Source: Clostridia bacterium (GTDB lineage Bacteria; Bacillota; Clostridia; Peptostreptococcales; JAAYPU01). Taken from it: 64,000 bases of DNA. The stretch is taken from contig JADQBM010000029.1 of assembly GCA_016278615.1 (NCBI GenBank), positions 22,668 through 86,667 on the forward strand. The letters run 5' to 3'. The translations under genes were made by a program, and so were the position numbers. Below the pieces are notes generated by a model, which was given only the letters and a program-made list of their open reading frames with translations, was not told where the DNA came from and did no database searches. Positions 37,640 through 40,554 of the stretch are shown here, one piece after another (position 1 is the first letter of the stretch; each line of letters opens with the position of its first letter).

Positions 37640-37669
37640 TTGACATATTGTAATAATTACTGTTAACAT
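37640..37669 (+). promoter_or_regulatory. Candidate sigma-A promoter of the riboswitch-controlled transcript
   Basis: TTGACA (37640-37645), 18-nt spacer containing an extended -10 TG (37661-37662), then TAACAT (37664-37669). Confidence 0.45.
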
Positions 37670-37695
37670 AATACTTAGTTTAATAGTCCATTGGA

Positions 37696-37866
37696 AAACA
37701 ACGCGAGATTATACATGATTAGGTATAAGCCGAAGCGGAAATCATAAGGAAGGTCATGTCCTTGTGAGAAACTGACAGGCAAAAGAAACGTTGTTTGATG
37801 GAACTCTGGAGATACTGTATATAAACAGAGCCAACGAGGAAATAACCAACAGGCAAAAAGACAGAG
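37696..37866 (+). promoter_or_regulatory. Tandem glycine riboswitch (two aptamers)
   Basis: Aptamer 1: P1 AAACAACG (37696-37703) pairs with CGTTGTTT (37789-37796); internal GCCGAAGCGGAAA; a 9-bp P3b hairpin; CTGACAGGCAAAAGAAA. Aptamer 2: ACTCTGGAGA..GCCAACGAGGAAA..CAACAGGCAAAAAGACAGAG, with P1 CTCTG/CAGAG (37804-37808/37862-37866). These match the glycine-aptamer signatures CUCUGGAGAG, CACCGAAGGGGCAA and CUCAGGCAAAAGGACAG. Confidence 0.8.
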
Positions 37867-37909
37867 GAGTATAATGACGCTTTTATTAGCGTTGCTATAT
37901 TCTTTTTTT
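37866..37909 (+). terminator. Expression-platform intrinsic terminator of the glycine riboswitch
   Basis: GGAGTATA-atg-ACGC [ttttatta] GCGT-tgc-TATATTCT followed by TTTTTT. Its 5' strand starts at the last base of aptamer-2 P1. Confidence 0.6.
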
Positions 37910-37992
37910 ATTTGTTTAAAACTTAATGGTGAAAACCCATTAAATTTTAATAACATTTTGATTTTTAAAAAAAATAAATCGGAGGTATTTGT

Positions 37993-39330
37993 ATGAAAAT
38001 GTTATTAGTTGGAGCTGGTGGTGTTGGTGAATCTATACTTAAAATATTAAAGGTTCGAGATCCAAATGGCTCATGGCTGAAAAAAGTTATTGTTTCAGAC
38101 TATGATTTAAAACGTGCAGAAGAAGTTGTCAATCACTTAGGAGAAGATTCCAGATTCATTGCAGAAAAAGTCAATGCAAAAGATATTAATGCAATCATTG
38201 ATCTCATAAAAAAACATGAATGTGACTTCGTTATGGATGCAGCTGCACCTTTCGTTTCCAATAATATCTTTGATGCTGCTTTTTTAGGAAATGCGAATTA
38301 TGCTAATATGGGAACTTGGTCGGTCCCTTTAGAAAAGCCAAAGTACGGTTATGGTCTTGAAAACAACTTTAGTGAATCTATGGCAGCATATAATTTCGAC
38401 CAGCATGAAGAGTGGCAAAAAAAAGGTATTATGGCTTGTATTTGCTTAGGCATTGATCCCGGAGTCGTGGATGTATTTGGAAGATTTGCGGCAGAGTATC
38501 TTTTTGATGAAATCCACGAAATCCATGTAAAGGACGGCGGAAATCTTCGAATTCCAGGAACTGGTGATTATGATATTGCCTTTGGTTTTAATGTTTGGAC
38601 CGTTTTAGATGAGGTTTTAAATCCTAATGTGGAATGGAGTAAAGATAAAGGCTTCTTCATAGAACCTGCTTTCGCAGGACAAGAAACGTTCCAACTACCT
38701 GTAAGTGTTGGTTCAAATACAATGGTAAAGGTTGAACATGAAGAAACTGTTCTTATGCCTCGGTTCTTACAAAAATATGGTCTGAAGAAATGTAGCTTTA
38801 AAATTAGTCTAGATGATAGCTTGGTTAATGCACTTAAAGTCATTGATGGTTTAGGACTCCGAAGTCTTGAAGATGTAGATGTGGGGGGTGTAAAAGTTAG
38901 ACCAAGAGATGTTGTTGCTGCAGTTGCACCACAACCTAAGGATCTGGGCAGTGAAATGATAGGGAAAATGGTAGTAGGCATACATTGTATTGGAATTAAA
39001 AATGGCATGAAGCGTGAAATCTTTATGTATCAGCCTTTTGATAATCAAGAATCCATGGAAAAGTGGGGCATGCAAGCAGTGGTTGCTCAAACTGGTTTTG
39101 GTGCTGCCATTGGAATCGAAATGATTGGAAGAGACTTCTGGAAAGATGCGGGTGTATACAGTCCCGAGTACTTCAATCCCATCCCCTACCTTGAAATTAT
39201 GGATGAGTCCGATTTTGAATACGGCATCGTTGAAATGGATTCAGAATATAAAGCAAAACAAGATAAAGAAACAATGGCAGAAATATTTGAGAAAGCAAAA
39301 ATGAAAAACGTAATGAACAATGAAAAATGA
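37993..39330 (+). CDS. Saccharopine dehydrogenase-family NAD(P)-binding oxidoreductase
   Basis: N-terminal Rossmann motif MLLVGAGGVGESI; 445 aa with family-typical length and layout. Preceded by a glycine riboswitch. The last codons lie in the HATH-F arm. Confidence 0.75.
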   Translation: MKMLLVGAGGVGESILKILKVRDPNGSWLKKVIVSDYDLKRAEEVVNHLGEDSRFIAEKVNAKDINAIIDLIKKHECDFVMDAAAPFVSNNIFDAAFLGNANYANMGTWSVPLEKPKYGYGLENNFSESMAAYNFDQHEEWQKKGIMACICLGIDPGVVDVFGRFAAEYLFDEIHEIHVKDGGNLRIPGTGDYDIAFGFNVWTVLDEVLNPNVEWSKDKGFFIEPAFAGQETFQLPVSVGSNTMVKVEHEETVLMPRFLQKYGLKKCSFKISLDDSLVNALKVIDGLGLRSLEDVDVGGVKVRPRDVVAAVAPQPKDLGSEMIGKMVVGIHCIGIKNGMKREIFMYQPFDNQESMEKWGMQAVVAQTGFGAAIGIEMIGRDFWKDAGVYSPEYFNPIPYLEIMDESDFEYGIVEMDSEYKAKQDKETMAEIFEKAKMKNVMNNEK

Positions 39331-39507
39331 ATAATGAACAGTGAGTAATGAATAATGAACAATGAATAATGAATAATGGAGGTTGGTTTTGCTTTTAGCA
39401 AAACCTTCTTTTATAAATGCAAGCTTTTGGAACAAAAGCCTCCATAATTATTCATTATTCATTATTCATTATTCATTGTTCATTGTTAATTGTTCATTGT
39501 TAATATT
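39310..39507 (-). repeat. HATH element copy F (ANAATGA/TCATTNT arm flavour), saccharopine-DH|lrgB convergent spacer
   Basis: Ten in-phase ANAATGA heptamers at 39310-39379, including the CDS stop TGA at 39328-39330. GGTTTTGC-tttta-GCAAAACC (39385-39405). GCTTTTG-gaa-CAAAAGC (39423-39439). Nine in-phase TCATTNT-type heptamers at 39445-39507. Confidence 0.9.
39385..39414 (+). terminator. Terminator of the saccharopine-DH-family gene formed by a HATH-F mini-hairpin
   Basis: GGTTTTGC-tttta-GCAAAACC followed by TTCTTTTAT. Confidence 0.6.
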
Positions 39508-39531
39508 TTTTACAGAAAAATATTAACAATG
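39495..39531. repeat. Perfect 16-bp inverted repeat centred on the lrgB stop codon
   Basis: CATTGTTAATATTTTT-tacag-AAAAATATTAACAATG. The left half is the last arm heptamers of HATH-F. The right half encodes the last lrgB codons (FIVNIFL-stop on the minus strand). Confidence 0.9.
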
Positions 39532-40208
39532 AACGGTGCCGCAAGTGCCGTAAAGATCCCTGCAATCCCCATGGCAAGAGAACTCATAGCCCCTTCGATT
39601 TCTCCTTCTTTAAAGGCTCTTGCTGTTCCTACAGCATGACACATACTGCCTAATGCAATTCCTTTTGCAATTTTGTTTTTTATCCCAAGGAACTTGATGA
39701 CTTCTGGGCCAAAACTTCCTCCAAATATTCCGGTAAATACAACCAATGCAATTGTAAGCTCTGGTATACCTCCAATAATTTGGGAGACTTCAATGGCAAT
39801 GGGATTTGTTACACCTTTAGGTACCATGGAAACTATGATTTCCTTATTAGTTCCTAAAATTTTTCCAAAAATAATACAACTTCCCATGGTCACAATACTT
39901 CCACAAACAATTCCCATAACAACTGGCACTACATTTTTCTTGAGAATGTGTATATTTTTATAAAGGGGTACAGCAAGTACAACAGCTGCCGGAGCCAGCA
40001 TAAAATTCAAAAAAGCATTTTGCGCTTTATAGACTTCATAATCAATATTTCCGATTTTTAAAACAACTATAATCAGTATGGTAGCGGTCAAAATCGGCTG
40101 AAGAAAAGAAAATTTGAATTTATTGTATATGAGAATGCCTACCCAAAACCCACTTAAAGTAAGCAACACTCCGAAAACGGGTATGTTCACCAATATATCA
40201 ATCATCAT
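39510..40208 (-). CDS. lrgB: LrgB-family (CidB/LrgB) membrane protein
   Basis: 232 aa polytopic protein that overlaps the upstream lrgA-like ORF by 11 nt. Confidence 0.85.
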   Translation of the reverse strand: MMIDILVNIPVFGVLLTLSGFWVGILIYNKFKFSFLQPILTATILIIVVLKIGNIDYEVYKAQNAFLNFMLAPAAVVLAVPLYKNIHILKKNVVPVVMGIVCGSIVTMGSCIIFGKILGTNKEIIVSMVPKGVTNPIAIEVSQIIGGIPELTIALVVFTGIFGGSFGPEVIKFLGIKNKIAKGIALGSMCHAVGTARAFKEGEIEGAMSSLAMGIAGIFTALAAPFIVNIFL

Positions 40209-40554
40209 GATTCCCCCTACCCATAAGTAATTCTGTGACCTTTCCTGCTACCAGTAACCCCAGGATAATGCTAATAAATACGGGGATGATAATCTTAATA
40301 AATTCATTCTTTAATAAATCAAGATAAAGAATAATGCCTACAGAAGGCACCAAATAAAATACAGCTAAATATTGTATAACGAAATTTGAAGCGTCTTCAA
40401 CTTTTTCTAATTTAACTACTTTGGTAATGAGAGCTAAAAATAAAAAAACCATTCCAATAACATTCGCCGGAACAGGAATATTAAAAATTCTTTCTGTGAG
40501 ATATCCAAAATATAAGAATAAAAGGATGATTGCAAATTGTTTTACTATTTTCAT
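40198..40554 (-). CDS. lrgA: LrgA/CidA holin-like protein
   Basis: 118 aa with four hydrophobic segments, paired with lrgB. Confidence 0.8.
   Translation of the reverse strand: MKIVKQFAIILLFLYFGYLTERIFNIPVPANVIGMVFLFLALITKVVKLEKVEDASNFVIQYLAVFYLVPSVGIILYLDLLKNEFIKIIIPVFISIILGLLVAGKVTELLMGRGNHDD

What the first reader, a model, noticed from the sequence alone, without database searches (positions are those of the whole stretch)
37640..37992. Tandem glycine riboswitch controls a saccharopine-dehydrogenase-family gene rather than glycine cleavage or transport genes
The 350-nt leader carries a candidate promoter (TTGACA, 18-nt spacer with extended -10 TG, TAACAT). It also carries two glycine aptamers with the hallmark segments: GCCGAAGCGGAAA and CTGACAGGCAAAAGAAA closed by an 8-bp P1, then ACTCTGGAGA..GCCAACGAGGAAA..CAGGCAAAAAGACAGAG. 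A terminator hairpin with a T6 tract starts at the end of aptamer-2 P1, which is the usual glycine-ON design. Known glycine riboswitches mostly precede gcvT/gcvP, glycine or alanine transporters and related genes. Here the only downstream gene is a 445-aa saccharopine-dehydrogenase-like oxidoreductase, followed by a terminator and a convergent gene. This predicts a glycine-induced enzyme of unknown reaction. Speculatively it could be a reductive condensation or an oxidative cleavage involving glycine, by analogy with saccharopine and opine chemistry.
Basis: partly seen in the sequence, partly recalled or inferred. Interest (0 to 1): 0.6.

Follow-up and report, generated by a model that had tools for sequence, protein, structure and literature searches.

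The report
Orphan glycine-variant riboswitch, not glycine-sensing
The leader is a real two-domain riboswitch, but it belongs to a known variant family (Rfam RF03166) that has lost the glycine-contacting bases; its ligand is unknown, and the dehydrogenase gene behind it is that family's usual partner, not an exception.

Summary

The best Rfam match is RF03166 glycine-GGAnGA (144 bits, gathering score 110, full length), not the canonical glycine family. The bulged U that contacts glycine is A37775 in aptamer 1 and A37848-A37849 in aptamer 2. A review reports that such variants reject glycine.

I collected 240 instances with an aptamer-2 signature; all 18 checked are full-length RF03166. The SDH-like gene comes first in 182, an APC permease in 39 and a CDF transporter in 6. 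So the odd gene association is the hallmark of this orphan class.

Of 164 distinct downstream tails, 142 carry a terminator. In 97 of these it overlaps the aptamer-2 P1, which indicates an ON switch.

The enzyme family has an invariant Asp where carboxyspermidine dehydrogenases have Ser-Arg, which suggests NAD+ use and a catabolic role. Operon partners include PotABCD-like transporters, an acylating aldehyde dehydrogenase and beta-alanyl-CoA ammonia lyase. These point, tentatively, to a polyamine or C3-amine ligand.

Verdict: a new member of a known orphan class. A glycine-induced enzyme is not supported.

The parts
37640..37669 (+). Candidate sigma-70-type promoter: TTGACA, 18-nt spacer with TG, TAACAT
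   Evidence: One search finds it at 10/12 matches with TG. It is not statistically distinguishable from background in this AT-rich region, and it is unverified.
37688..37801 (+). P0 leader-linker helix (37688-37690 pairs with 37799-37801), which encloses aptamer 1
   Evidence: Structure from the Rfam alignment. Covariation is CG<->UA at 47:47 for the outer pair.
37696..37796 (+). Aptamer 1 of the tandem variant. It has an 8-bp P1, P2, and P3/P3a/P3b. The bulged base 5' of CAGGC is A37775 instead of the glycine-contacting U.
   Evidence: This column is A in 100, G in 9 and U in 8 of 117 distinct homologues.
37804..37866 (+). Aptamer 2. It has a 5-bp P1, P2, and a truncated P3 with no P3b. Bulged AA37848-37849 replaces the glycine-contacting U.
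   Evidence: Aptamer 2 alone scores 71 bits against RF03166 model positions 105-177. P2 shows full compensatory covariation.
37867..37909 (+). Intrinsic terminator. The hairpin spans 37867-37902 (15 pairs, one mismatch) and T7 spans 37903-37909. AGAG 37863-37866 of the P1 3' strand can extend the stem by pairing with the first four U.
   Evidence: Strict overlap with P1 is 0 nt in this copy.
37981..37985 (+). Ribosome-binding site GGAGG, 7 nt upstream of the ATG
   Evidence: Read directly from the sequence.
37993..39330 (+). 445-aa saccharopine-dehydrogenase-family oxidoreductase. It is a paralogue of carboxy(nor)spermidine dehydrogenase with an NAD+-type Ser-Asp signature after beta-2.
39385..39415 (+). 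Terminator of the monocistronic transcript
   Evidence: One search finds a 9-pair stem followed by TTCTTTTATA. The convergent lrgB begins at 39510.

Best explanation
The leader is a member of the orphan riboswitch family glycine-GGAnGA (Rfam RF03166). This is a tandem-aptamer descendant of the glycine riboswitch in which the glycine-contacting bulged uracil of both binding pockets has been replaced by adenine.

It most likely works as a transcriptional ON switch. Without ligand, the terminator directly after aptamer 2 stops transcription. With ligand, the docked tandem aptamers hold the aptamer-2 P1 strand and read-through expresses the single downstream gene.

The ligand is not glycine and has not been identified. 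My working inference is that it is the substrate, or a close metabolic relative of the substrate, of the regulated enzyme. That enzyme appears to be an NAD+-dependent catabolic paralogue of carboxyspermidine dehydrogenase.

From the operon partners seen in other genomes, the most likely chemical neighbourhood is polyamine or C3-amine catabolism. An example is cleavage of an aminopropyl polyamine to 3-aminopropanal, then beta-alanyl-CoA, then acryloyl-CoA.

Shown here: family membership, the altered pocket bases, the gene association, and terminator placement across the class. Inferred: the ON logic in this particular copy, the NAD+ preference, the catabolic role and the ligand class. The 0.85 below refers to the core claim (RF03166 member, ON switch, not a glycine sensor). 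The polyamine or C3-amine ligand class alone I put at about 0.3.
For: **Family membership**
- RF03166 hit of 144 bits against a gathering score of 110, covering model positions 1-177, and the only Rfam hit in 64 kb.
- Pocket bases are A37775 and AA37848-37849. The role of the bulged U is taken from PMC7161355.
- The variants are reported to reject glycine (PMC9481103).

**Comparative set**
- An aptamer-2 signature retrieved 119 genome loci and 120 metagenome loci.
- All 18 loci checked are full-length RF03166, at 125-173 bits.
- 35 of 51 pairs covary.

**Gene association**
- The first gene is SDH-like in 182 instances, an APC permease in 39 and a CDF transporter in 6. The SDH-like gene is in the operon in 199 of 240.
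- After collapsing to 117 RNA groups, SDH-like lies downstream in 65, APC in 40, CDF in 8, PotD-like in 6, acylating ALDH in 5, Acl in 5 and CN-hydrolase in 3.

**Switch logic**
- 142 of 164 distinct tails have a terminator. In 97 of these the stem overlaps the aptamer-2 P1 3' strand by at least 3 nt.

**Enzyme**
- The closest solved relatives are carboxyspermidine-dehydrogenase-type proteins, E = 1e-29 to 1e-43.
- The carboxynorspermidine synthase model gives only 151 bits against a cutoff of 800.
- Asp is invariant after beta-2 in 154 of 156 family members, where four CASDH-type structures have Ser-Arg.

**Operon partners**
- PotD-like binding protein, best PDB match E. coli PotD at E = 1e-60.
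- PotA above its subfamily cutoff.
- A 152-aa protein matching C. propionicum beta-alanyl-CoA:ammonia lyase 2 at E = 4e-80.
- An acylating aldehyde dehydrogenase and a CN-hydrolase.
- The APC permease is closest to basic amino acid/polyamine antiporters such as AdiC.
Against: - No binding or expression data exist here. 'Rejects glycine' rests on one sentence in a review; the primary paper (Weinberg et al. 2017, PNAS) could not be read.
- In this window the terminator hairpin and the aptamer-2 P1 do not strictly compete. The minimum-free-energy fold of the whole leader contains both. The only overlap is four weak A-U/G-U pairs with the T-tract, so the switching mechanism in this copy is less clear than in most homologues.
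- The polyamine or C3-amine inference rests on minority contexts. Acl, ALDH and PotD-like genes each occur in only 5-6 of 117 RNA groups, and the Acl cases may all be one lineage. In most genomes the enzyme gene stands alone.
- The NAD+ assignment is a rule-of-thumb reading of one residue.
- Beta-alanine is an obvious glycine analogue and may already have been tested and rejected by the discoverers.
Confidence: 0.85

Rival explanations
1. It is a functional tandem glycine riboswitch that turns on a saccharopine-dehydrogenase-like enzyme in response to glycine.
For: - Overall architecture and most core sequence are shared with glycine riboswitches.
- A same-clan, lower-scoring hit, by inference RF00504, was suppressed in the gathering-threshold scan.
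- The design is ON, as for gcvT leaders.
Against: - The best match is to RF03166.
- The bulged U that makes two hydrogen bonds to glycine is replaced in both aptamers. U-to-purine changes block binding.
- The variants are reported to reject glycine.
- None of the 240 instances precedes gcvT/gcvP, grd or an alanine/glycine symporter.
Confidence: 0.06
2. It is the same variant riboswitch, but the ligand is beta-alanine, which is glycine plus one methylene. The enzyme would be a deaminating beta-alanine dehydrogenase feeding malonate semialdehyde to the acylating aldehyde dehydrogenase. Beta-alanyl-CoA ammonia lyase would serve the reductive branch, as in Clostridium propionicum fermentation.
For: - The chemical change from glycine is minimal.
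- A near-identical homologue of C. propionicum Acl2 sits in the operon.
- The acylating ALDH is adjacent to the enzyme gene.
- An Anaerotignum species carries the riboswitch-APC-SDH arrangement (L033).
- The APC permease could import an amino acid.
Against: - PotABCD-like transporters that keep the acidic polyamine-binding residues are co-transcribed in several genomes.
- No CoA-transferase is seen in the operons.
- The family's nearest characterised relatives make or break secondary amines rather than deaminating primary ones.
- Beta-alanine is a routine analogue in glycine-riboswitch assays and was probably tested already (my assumption).
Confidence: 0.12
3. The RNA no longer senses any small molecule. 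It would be a degenerate glycine riboswitch kept as a constitutive attenuator or as a protein- or sRNA-controlled leader.
For: - In this window P1 and the terminator hairpin can coexist.
- The ligand has stayed unidentified since 2017.
Against: - Both pockets and the tertiary-contact A-rich segments are almost invariant. Examples are GAAAC, GGCAAAA, and the aptamer-1 strand CCGAAG, whose columns are invariant or nearly so in 117 distinct sequences. The aptamer-2 signature columns were fixed by the search pattern and do not count as independent evidence.
- The stems covary.
- The element spans Lachnospiraceae, Oscillospiraceae, Peptostreptococcaceae, Anaerovoracaceae and Erysipelotrichaceae.
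- The pocket substitutions are specific (A, AA) rather than random decay.
- The gene association is tight.
Confidence: 0.04

Closest known systems
glycine-GGAnGA riboswitch aptamer (Rfam RF03166; glycine-riboswitch variants of Weinberg et al. 2017)
   Same: - Full-length match above the gathering score.
- Tandem aptamers with P0, P1, P2 and P3.
- Purines at the glycine-contacting bulge of both aptamers.
- Clostridial host range.
- A terminator-type expression platform.
   Different: Nothing categorical.
- The score of 144 bits is at the lower end of the 125-173 range seen in homologues.
- The terminator in this copy starts exactly after P1 instead of overlapping it.
- A few consensus positions differ: GAGA rather than UAGA in J1/2 of aptamer 1, and AAAAAGAC rather than AAAAGGAC.
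Canonical tandem glycine riboswitch (RF00504), for example the Bacillus subtilis gcvT ON switch
   Same: - Same fold and the same clan.
- The same ON design, with a terminator competing with the aptamer-2 P1.
- The same leader-linker helix.
   Different: - The bulged U of each pocket is replaced.
- Aptamer 2 lacks P3b.
- The regulated genes are unrelated to glycine cleavage, reduction or uptake.
- The variants are reported not to bind glycine.
Carboxyspermidine / carboxynorspermidine dehydrogenase (CASDH/CANSDH; PDB 8deb, 4rl6, 4ina; NCBIfam NF043000)
   Same: - The same two-domain architecture, with end-to-end alignment (E down to 1e-43).
- It is the closest characterised enzyme family.
   Different: - 151 bits against an equivalog cutoff of 800.
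- Ser-Asp rather than Ser-Arg after beta-2, which predicts NAD+ rather than NADPH.
- No adjacent carboxyspermidine decarboxylase.
- It sits under a ligand-ON switch, which suits catabolism rather than biosynthesis.
Spermidine riboswitch (SAM-I variant; Salvail et al. 2023, PMC10853860)
   Same: It is a precedent for a rare variant of a common aptamer class being repurposed, and for selective polyamine sensing by RNA. This matters only if the polyamine hypothesis is right.
   Different: - An unrelated fold.
- It controls polyamine synthesis genes.
- No evidence yet that RF03166 binds a polyamine.

Membership tests
RF03166 glycine-GGAnGA | Covariance-model score at or above the curated gathering score (110 bits), full length | tested here: met
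   144 bits, E = 5e-31, model positions 1-177 of 177.
RF03166 glycine-GGAnGA | Two tandem three-way-junction aptamers joined by a linker that pairs with the leader (P0) | tested here: met
   Structure line. P0, both P1 helices, both P2 helices and P3b covary across 117 RNAs.
RF03166 glycine-GGAnGA | Altered ligand-pocket nucleotides: the bulged U 5' of C(A/U)GG is replaced in the aptamers | tested here: met
   A37775 in aptamer 1 and A37848-A37849 in aptamer 2. The aptamer-1 column is A in 100, G in 9 and U in 8. My mapping of the name 'GGAnGA' onto these positions is my own inference.
RF03166 glycine-GGAnGA | Does not bind glycine; binds a different, unknown ligand | not testable with these tools
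   Literature statement only (PMC9481103).
RF03166 glycine-GGAnGA | Gene association typical of the class | tested here: met
   The SDH-like gene comes first in 182 of 227 interpretable instances retrieved with an RNA-only signature. The window has the same arrangement.
RF00504 canonical glycine riboswitch | Conserved bulged uracil in P3 that hydrogen-bonds glycine, in at least one aptamer | tested here: not met
   Both positions are adenines. The role of this U is from PMC7161355.
RF00504 canonical glycine riboswitch | Best-scoring family for the sequence | tested here: not met
   A same-clan hit exists but scores lower and is suppressed in favour of RF03166.
RF00504 canonical glycine riboswitch | Controls glycine cleavage, reduction or transport genes | tested here: not met
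   The downstream gene is SDH-like. No gcv, grd or AGCS gene follows any of the 240 instances.
Carboxy(nor)spermidine dehydrogenase (NF043000) | Equivalog HMM score at or above the cutoff (800 bits) | tested here: not met
   151 bits.
Carboxy(nor)spermidine dehydrogenase (NF043000) | NADPH-type Ser-Arg after beta-2 of the Rossmann fold | tested here: not met
   The window has Ser-Asp-Tyr. Asp is invariant in 154 of 156 relatives, while 4rl6, 4ina, 8deb and 8h4z all have Ser-Arg.
Carboxy(nor)spermidine dehydrogenase (NF043000) | Sacchrp_dh_NADP + Sacchrp_dh_C architecture | tested here: met
   and the end-to-end alignments.
Carboxy(nor)spermidine dehydrogenase (NF043000) | Partnered with a carboxy(nor)spermidine decarboxylase gene | tested here: not met
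   The window neighbours are an M23 peptidase, SpoIIID, LrgAB and an aminotransferase. No recurrent decarboxylase cluster appears in the operon survey, although I did not run a dedicated search for nspC.

The most novel reading that the evidence does not exclude
The A-type RF03166 RNAs could be ON switches for an aminopropyl polyamine or a C3 amine, such as spermidine, norspermidine, 1,3-diaminopropane, 3-aminopropanal or beta-alanine. The regulated SDH-like protein would be an uncharacterised NAD+-dependent 'reverse CASDH'. It would open an oxygen-independent polyamine degradation route in gut Clostridia: amine to 3-aminopropanal, to beta-alanyl-CoA, to acryloyl-CoA. This would give the orphan riboswitch a ligand and define a new catabolic enzyme.
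Probability: 0.25. Interest if true: 0.75.

Novelty: new member of a known kind. Interest (0 to 1): 0.4.

Why it matters
As an RNA this is not new. The family is in Rfam, and its loss of glycine recognition was published in 2017.

What remains open is the ligand and the function of the enzyme it controls. That enzyme is highly conserved: relatives share 62-74% identity across several families of gut Clostridia.

The survey here turns that question into a short, testable list. It shows that the enzyme gene is the defining target of the class. It shows that the class is ON-switched, and that the enzyme carries an NAD+-type signature, unlike biosynthetic carboxyspermidine dehydrogenases. It also shows that the rare multi-gene operons add polyamine-type transporters and enzymes of the 3-aminopropanal and beta-alanyl-CoA route.

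If a polyamine or C3 amine proves to be the ligand, this would be a second natural polyamine-related riboswitch. It would also be a new anaerobic amine-degradation enzyme in abundant human-gut bacteria.

Tried and rejected
- **Primary paper.** I tried to read the primary description of the variant (PMC5358364 and its DOI). It is not held. The 2017 NAR paper has no text on it and no supplements are held.
- **Ligand in the literature.** Searches for a solved ligand or a link between this enzyme family and riboswitches, polyamines, carboxymethyl-lysine or beta-alanyl-CoA found nothing.
- **Carboxymethyl-lysine.** I considered N6-carboxymethyl-lysine, an N-substituted glycine that a saccharopine-type enzyme could cleave, as the ligand. 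No contextual or literature support turned up, so I dropped it.
- **CDF transporter as a clue.** I considered the CDF association as a pointer to a metal or cationic ligand and set it aside. All six CDF-first RNAs keep U in aptamer 1, so they are probably a separate subtype.
- **LrgAB link.** LrgAB lies convergent in the window and directly riboswitch-controlled in L211. It occurs in only 2 of 117 RNA groups, so I treat this as chance.
- **Terminator detection.** My first method mis-placed T-runs. I replaced it.
- **Spurious ORFs.** ORF clusters F2/F3 after the enzyme gene in 40 metagenome loci are short and look like antisense artefacts. So is the 93-aa ORF 37675-37956 on the minus strand of the window.
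- **Riboswitch-free homologue.** The Natronincola ferrireducens homologue has no riboswitch upstream, so the enzyme family is broader than the RNA.

Full report
**1. What is there**

The region reads as the first-stage reader described.
- A candidate promoter: TTGACA 37640-45, an 18-nt spacer with TG, and TAACAT 37664-69.
- A structured leader.
- A hairpin followed by T7.
- A GGAGG ribosome-binding site at 37981-85.
- A 445-aa ORF at 37993-39330, with its own terminator at 39385-39405.
- Convergent lrgB/lrgA genes after that.

The promoter is only a consensus match in an AT-rich stretch. Such matches are not enriched there (13 found against 8.2 +/- 3.2 in shuffles), and a second equally good site lies 34 nt upstream.

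**2. Which RNA family**

A gathering-threshold scan of the whole 64-kb window against Rfam gives one hit. It is RF03166, 'glycine-GGAnGA riboswitch aptamer', at 37688-37868 on the + strand. The score is 144 bits against a gathering score of 110, E = 5e-31, covering model positions 1-177 of 177.

One lower-scoring hit of the same clan (CL00125) was suppressed. It is not named in the output; I take it to be RF00504. Aptamer 2 alone still prefers RF03166, at 71 bits.

The alignment gives the following anatomy.
- P0: 37688-90 with 37799-801.
- Aptamer 1: an 8-bp P1 (37696-703 with 37789-796), P2, and P3/P3a/P3b.
- A short linker.
- Aptamer 2: a 5-bp P1 (37804-08 with 37862-66), P2, and a truncated P3 without P3b.

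**3. Why it is not a glycine sensor**

Torgerson, Hiller and Strobel (PMC7161355) describe the canonical pocket as about five pairs nested in P3. Glycine is bound to a bulged uracil (U81 and U179 in B. subtilis), which makes two hydrogen bonds to it. Changing that U to a purine blocks binding by that aptamer.

That U is the base immediately 5' of CAGG in CUCUCAGGC. My mapping uses the paper's C80/U81 and U178/U179 numbering together with the B. subtilis sequence as I recall it.

In the window the equivalent bases are A37775 (CUG[A]CAGGC) and A37848-A37849 (CC[AA]CAGGC).

The Sherlock and Breaker review (PMC9481103) states that certain glycine riboswitch variants carry mutations in the binding cores of one or both aptamers, that they reject glycine, and that they have probably changed ligand. 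PMC6944388 adds that most known examples are metagenomic. The primary paper could not be read.

**4. Comparative set**

I searched with a signature taken only from aptamer 2 (CCNANGNGG-N3-8-AACCAACNGGNAAAANGACA).
- It matches once in the window and never in shuffles.
- It retrieved 119 loci from one-genome-per-species contigs and 120 from metagenome contigs.
- The hosts are Lachnospiraceae, Oscillospiraceae, Anaerovoracaceae, Peptostreptococcaceae and Erysipelotrichaceae.
- All 18 loci checked with Rfam are full-length RF03166, at 125-173 bits.

In an unguided MAFFT alignment of 117 distinct RNAs, 82% of cells at the 51 Rfam pairs are standard pairs. 35 pairs show compensatory pair types. These include P0, the aptamer-1 P1, both P2 helices and P3b.

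The pocket and A-rich tertiary-contact segments are almost invariant. The aptamer-1 bulge, which was not part of the search pattern, is A in 100, G in 9 and U in 8.

**5. Gene association**

Across 240 instances, 227 have interpretable downstream sequence.

| First gene after the RNA | Instances |
|---|---|
| SDH-like gene (median about 62% identity to the window protein in the genome-contig set) | 182 |
| ~575-aa APC-family permease | 39 |
| CDF 'cation efflux' protein | 6 |

The SDH-like gene is somewhere in the operon in 199 of the 240.

I then collapsed the set to 117 RNA groups at 97% identity or more and counted genes downstream on the same strand.

| Gene downstream, same strand | RNA groups (of 117) |
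|---|---|
| SDH-like | 65 (many loci are truncated) |
| APC permease | 40 |
| CDF transporter | 8 |
| PotD-like binding protein | 6 (12 anywhere in the locus) |
| Acylating aldehyde dehydrogenase | 5 |
| Beta-alanyl-CoA ammonia lyase | 5 |
| Arylsulfotransferase | 5 |
| P-II | 4 |
| CN-hydrolase | 3 |

No instance precedes glycine cleavage, glycine reductase or an alanine/glycine symporter.

**6. Expression platform**

Of 164 distinct downstream tails, 142 have a stable hairpin ending at a T-run.
- In 97 of these, the 5' arm includes at least 3 nt of GACAGAG, the 3' strand of the aptamer-2 P1. This is the classical ON arrangement.
- In 45, the window among them, the hairpin starts at or one base after P1.
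- A minority have no terminator and place the RBS close to the aptamer (for example L013, L030 and L044).

In the window the hairpin spans 37867-37902 (15 pairs, -12.8 kcal/mol) and is followed by T7. Folded alone, AGAG 37863-66 extends the stem onto the first four U, giving -17.5 kcal/mol with z = -5.6.

In the full leader the minimum-free-energy structure contains both P1 and the 15-pair hairpin. The centroid instead has the extended hairpin and no aptamer-2 P1. ON logic is thus well supported for the class and plausible here. The competition in this copy is weak, and I mark it as inferred.

**7. The enzyme**

- It has Sacchrp_dh_NADP and Sacchrp_dh_C domains.
- The only notable NCBIfam match (one other, at 19 bits, is negligible) is carboxynorspermidine synthase, at 151 bits against a cutoff of 800.
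- The best solved relatives are 4rl6, 4ina, 8deb (carboxyspermidine dehydrogenase) and 8h4z, at E = 1e-43 to 1e-29 and aligned end to end.
- Relatives at 65-74% identity occur widely in Clostridia and Synergistaceae.
- After beta-2 of the Rossmann fold, the four PDB proteins read Ala-Ser-Arg and the window protein reads Ser-Asp-Tyr.
- That Asp is present in 154 of 156 riboswitch-linked homologues.

By the standard rule, an acidic residue at this position favours NAD+ and an Arg favours NADP(H). This predicts NAD+ use, which together with ligand-ON control suggests oxidation rather than biosynthesis. No decarboxylase partner is present.

**8. Clues to the ligand (inference)**

Operon partners in other genomes are as follows.
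- A PotD-like binding protein. Its best PDB match is E. coli PotD at E = 1e-60. It keeps W34, T35, E36, Y37, S83, Y85, D168, E171 and D257, and changes W229Y, W255S, Y293S and Q327I. The residue list is from memory.
- PotA, above the polyamine-ATPase subfamily cutoff, with two permeases and P-II.
- The APC permease is nearest to basic amino acid/polyamine antiporters and to AdiC.
- A CoA-acylating aldehyde dehydrogenase sits directly after the enzyme gene in several lineages.
- In one group of mouse-gut Clostridia there is a 152-aa protein matching C. propionicum beta-alanyl-CoA:ammonia lyase 2 at E = 4e-80. A CN-hydrolase follows it.

CASDH joins putrescine to aspartate semialdehyde. The decarboxylated analogue of that aldehyde is 3-aminopropanal. 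Its acyl-CoA is beta-alanyl-CoA, which is the substrate of the lyase.

The most economical scheme is therefore as follows. An aminopropyl polyamine, or 1,3-diaminopropane, is oxidised by the SDH-like enzyme to 3-aminopropanal. That is converted to beta-alanyl-CoA and then to acryloyl-CoA. The amine, or a close relative of it, would be the riboswitch ligand.

Beta-alanine itself is a serious alternative. These contexts are a minority, so I give the ligand-class inference only about 0.25-0.3. A spermidine riboswitch derived from SAM-I shows that selective polyamine sensing by RNA exists (PMC10853860).

**9. Verdict**

It is wrong on the key point, which is that glycine is not the likely ligand.

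The element is a new member of a known orphan family in its typical context. Interest is moderate. It is not surprising to a specialist, but the comparative evidence narrows an open ligand question to a small set of experiments.

Noticed in passing
L009, L011, L028, L054, L059, L083 (aptamer 1, the base 5' of CAGGC), compared with all other loci: The pocket base of aptamer 1 tracks gene context. With A, the first gene is SDH-like in 164 and APC in 28. With G, it is SDH-like in 8. With U, it is CDF in 6 (all six CDF-first loci), APC in 2 and SDH-like in 2. The CDF-linked RNAs keep a near-canonical aptamer 1 and may be a separate specificity subtype inside RF03166.
   Followed up: partly
L210, around 2811-2844 in RNA orientation: Only the variant aptamer 2 is present. 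A TTGACA promoter-like site lies directly upstream and a LacI-type regulator follows. This may be a 'singlet' form of the variant.
   Followed up: no
L211 (the RNA, then lrgA-lrgB) and window 39510-40554 (-): In L211 the same RNA and terminator are followed by lrgA-lrgB instead of the SDH-like gene. In the window, lrgB/lrgA lie convergent immediately after the SDH-like gene. Only 2 of 117 RNA groups show any LrgAB nearby, so this is probably coincidence.
   Followed up: yes
L020, L023, L035, L050 (Anaerovoracaceae), between aptamer 2 and the SDH start: These loci have no terminator. Instead they share a conserved segment of about 100 nt (GGAATATTTAGTTTCCAACTGCTGAGTAAGAT...CCAAAAGCAAGGAGG) running up to the RBS. 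It has no Rfam match in L035, the one locus scanned. It may be a different, translational expression platform.
   Followed up: partly
window 39311-39378 and 39447-39498: A heptamer array TAATGAA (x9.7) overlaps the end of the SDH-like ORF. Its inverted counterpart ATTATTC (x7.4) lies downstream. Together they form a 72-nt imperfect inverted repeat (81% complementary) around the terminator at 39385-39405. Its function is unknown. It also gives the window protein a short Asn/Met-rich C-terminal tail that the relatives of about 416 aa lack.
   Followed up: partly
window 37993-39330, residues 33-35 of the protein: The protein has Ser-Asp-Tyr after beta-2 where carboxyspermidine-dehydrogenase-type structures have Ser-Arg. 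The Asp is invariant in 154 of 156 riboswitch-linked relatives, which predicts a cofactor switch to NAD+.
   Followed up: yes
L241 7290-8010 (Natronincola ferrireducens): A 67%-identical homologue of the enzyme has a 700-nt upstream region with no riboswitch, so the enzyme family is broader than the RNA.
   Followed up: yes
L005 1032-1105 (-): A fluoride riboswitch (RF01734, 40 bits) lies about 2.3 kb from the RF03166 element in a Holdemanella MAG. It is unrelated to this finding.
   Followed up: no
window 37675-37956 (-): A 93-aa ORF runs antisense to the riboswitch leader. It is almost certainly a chance ORF in AT-rich sequence.
   Followed up: no
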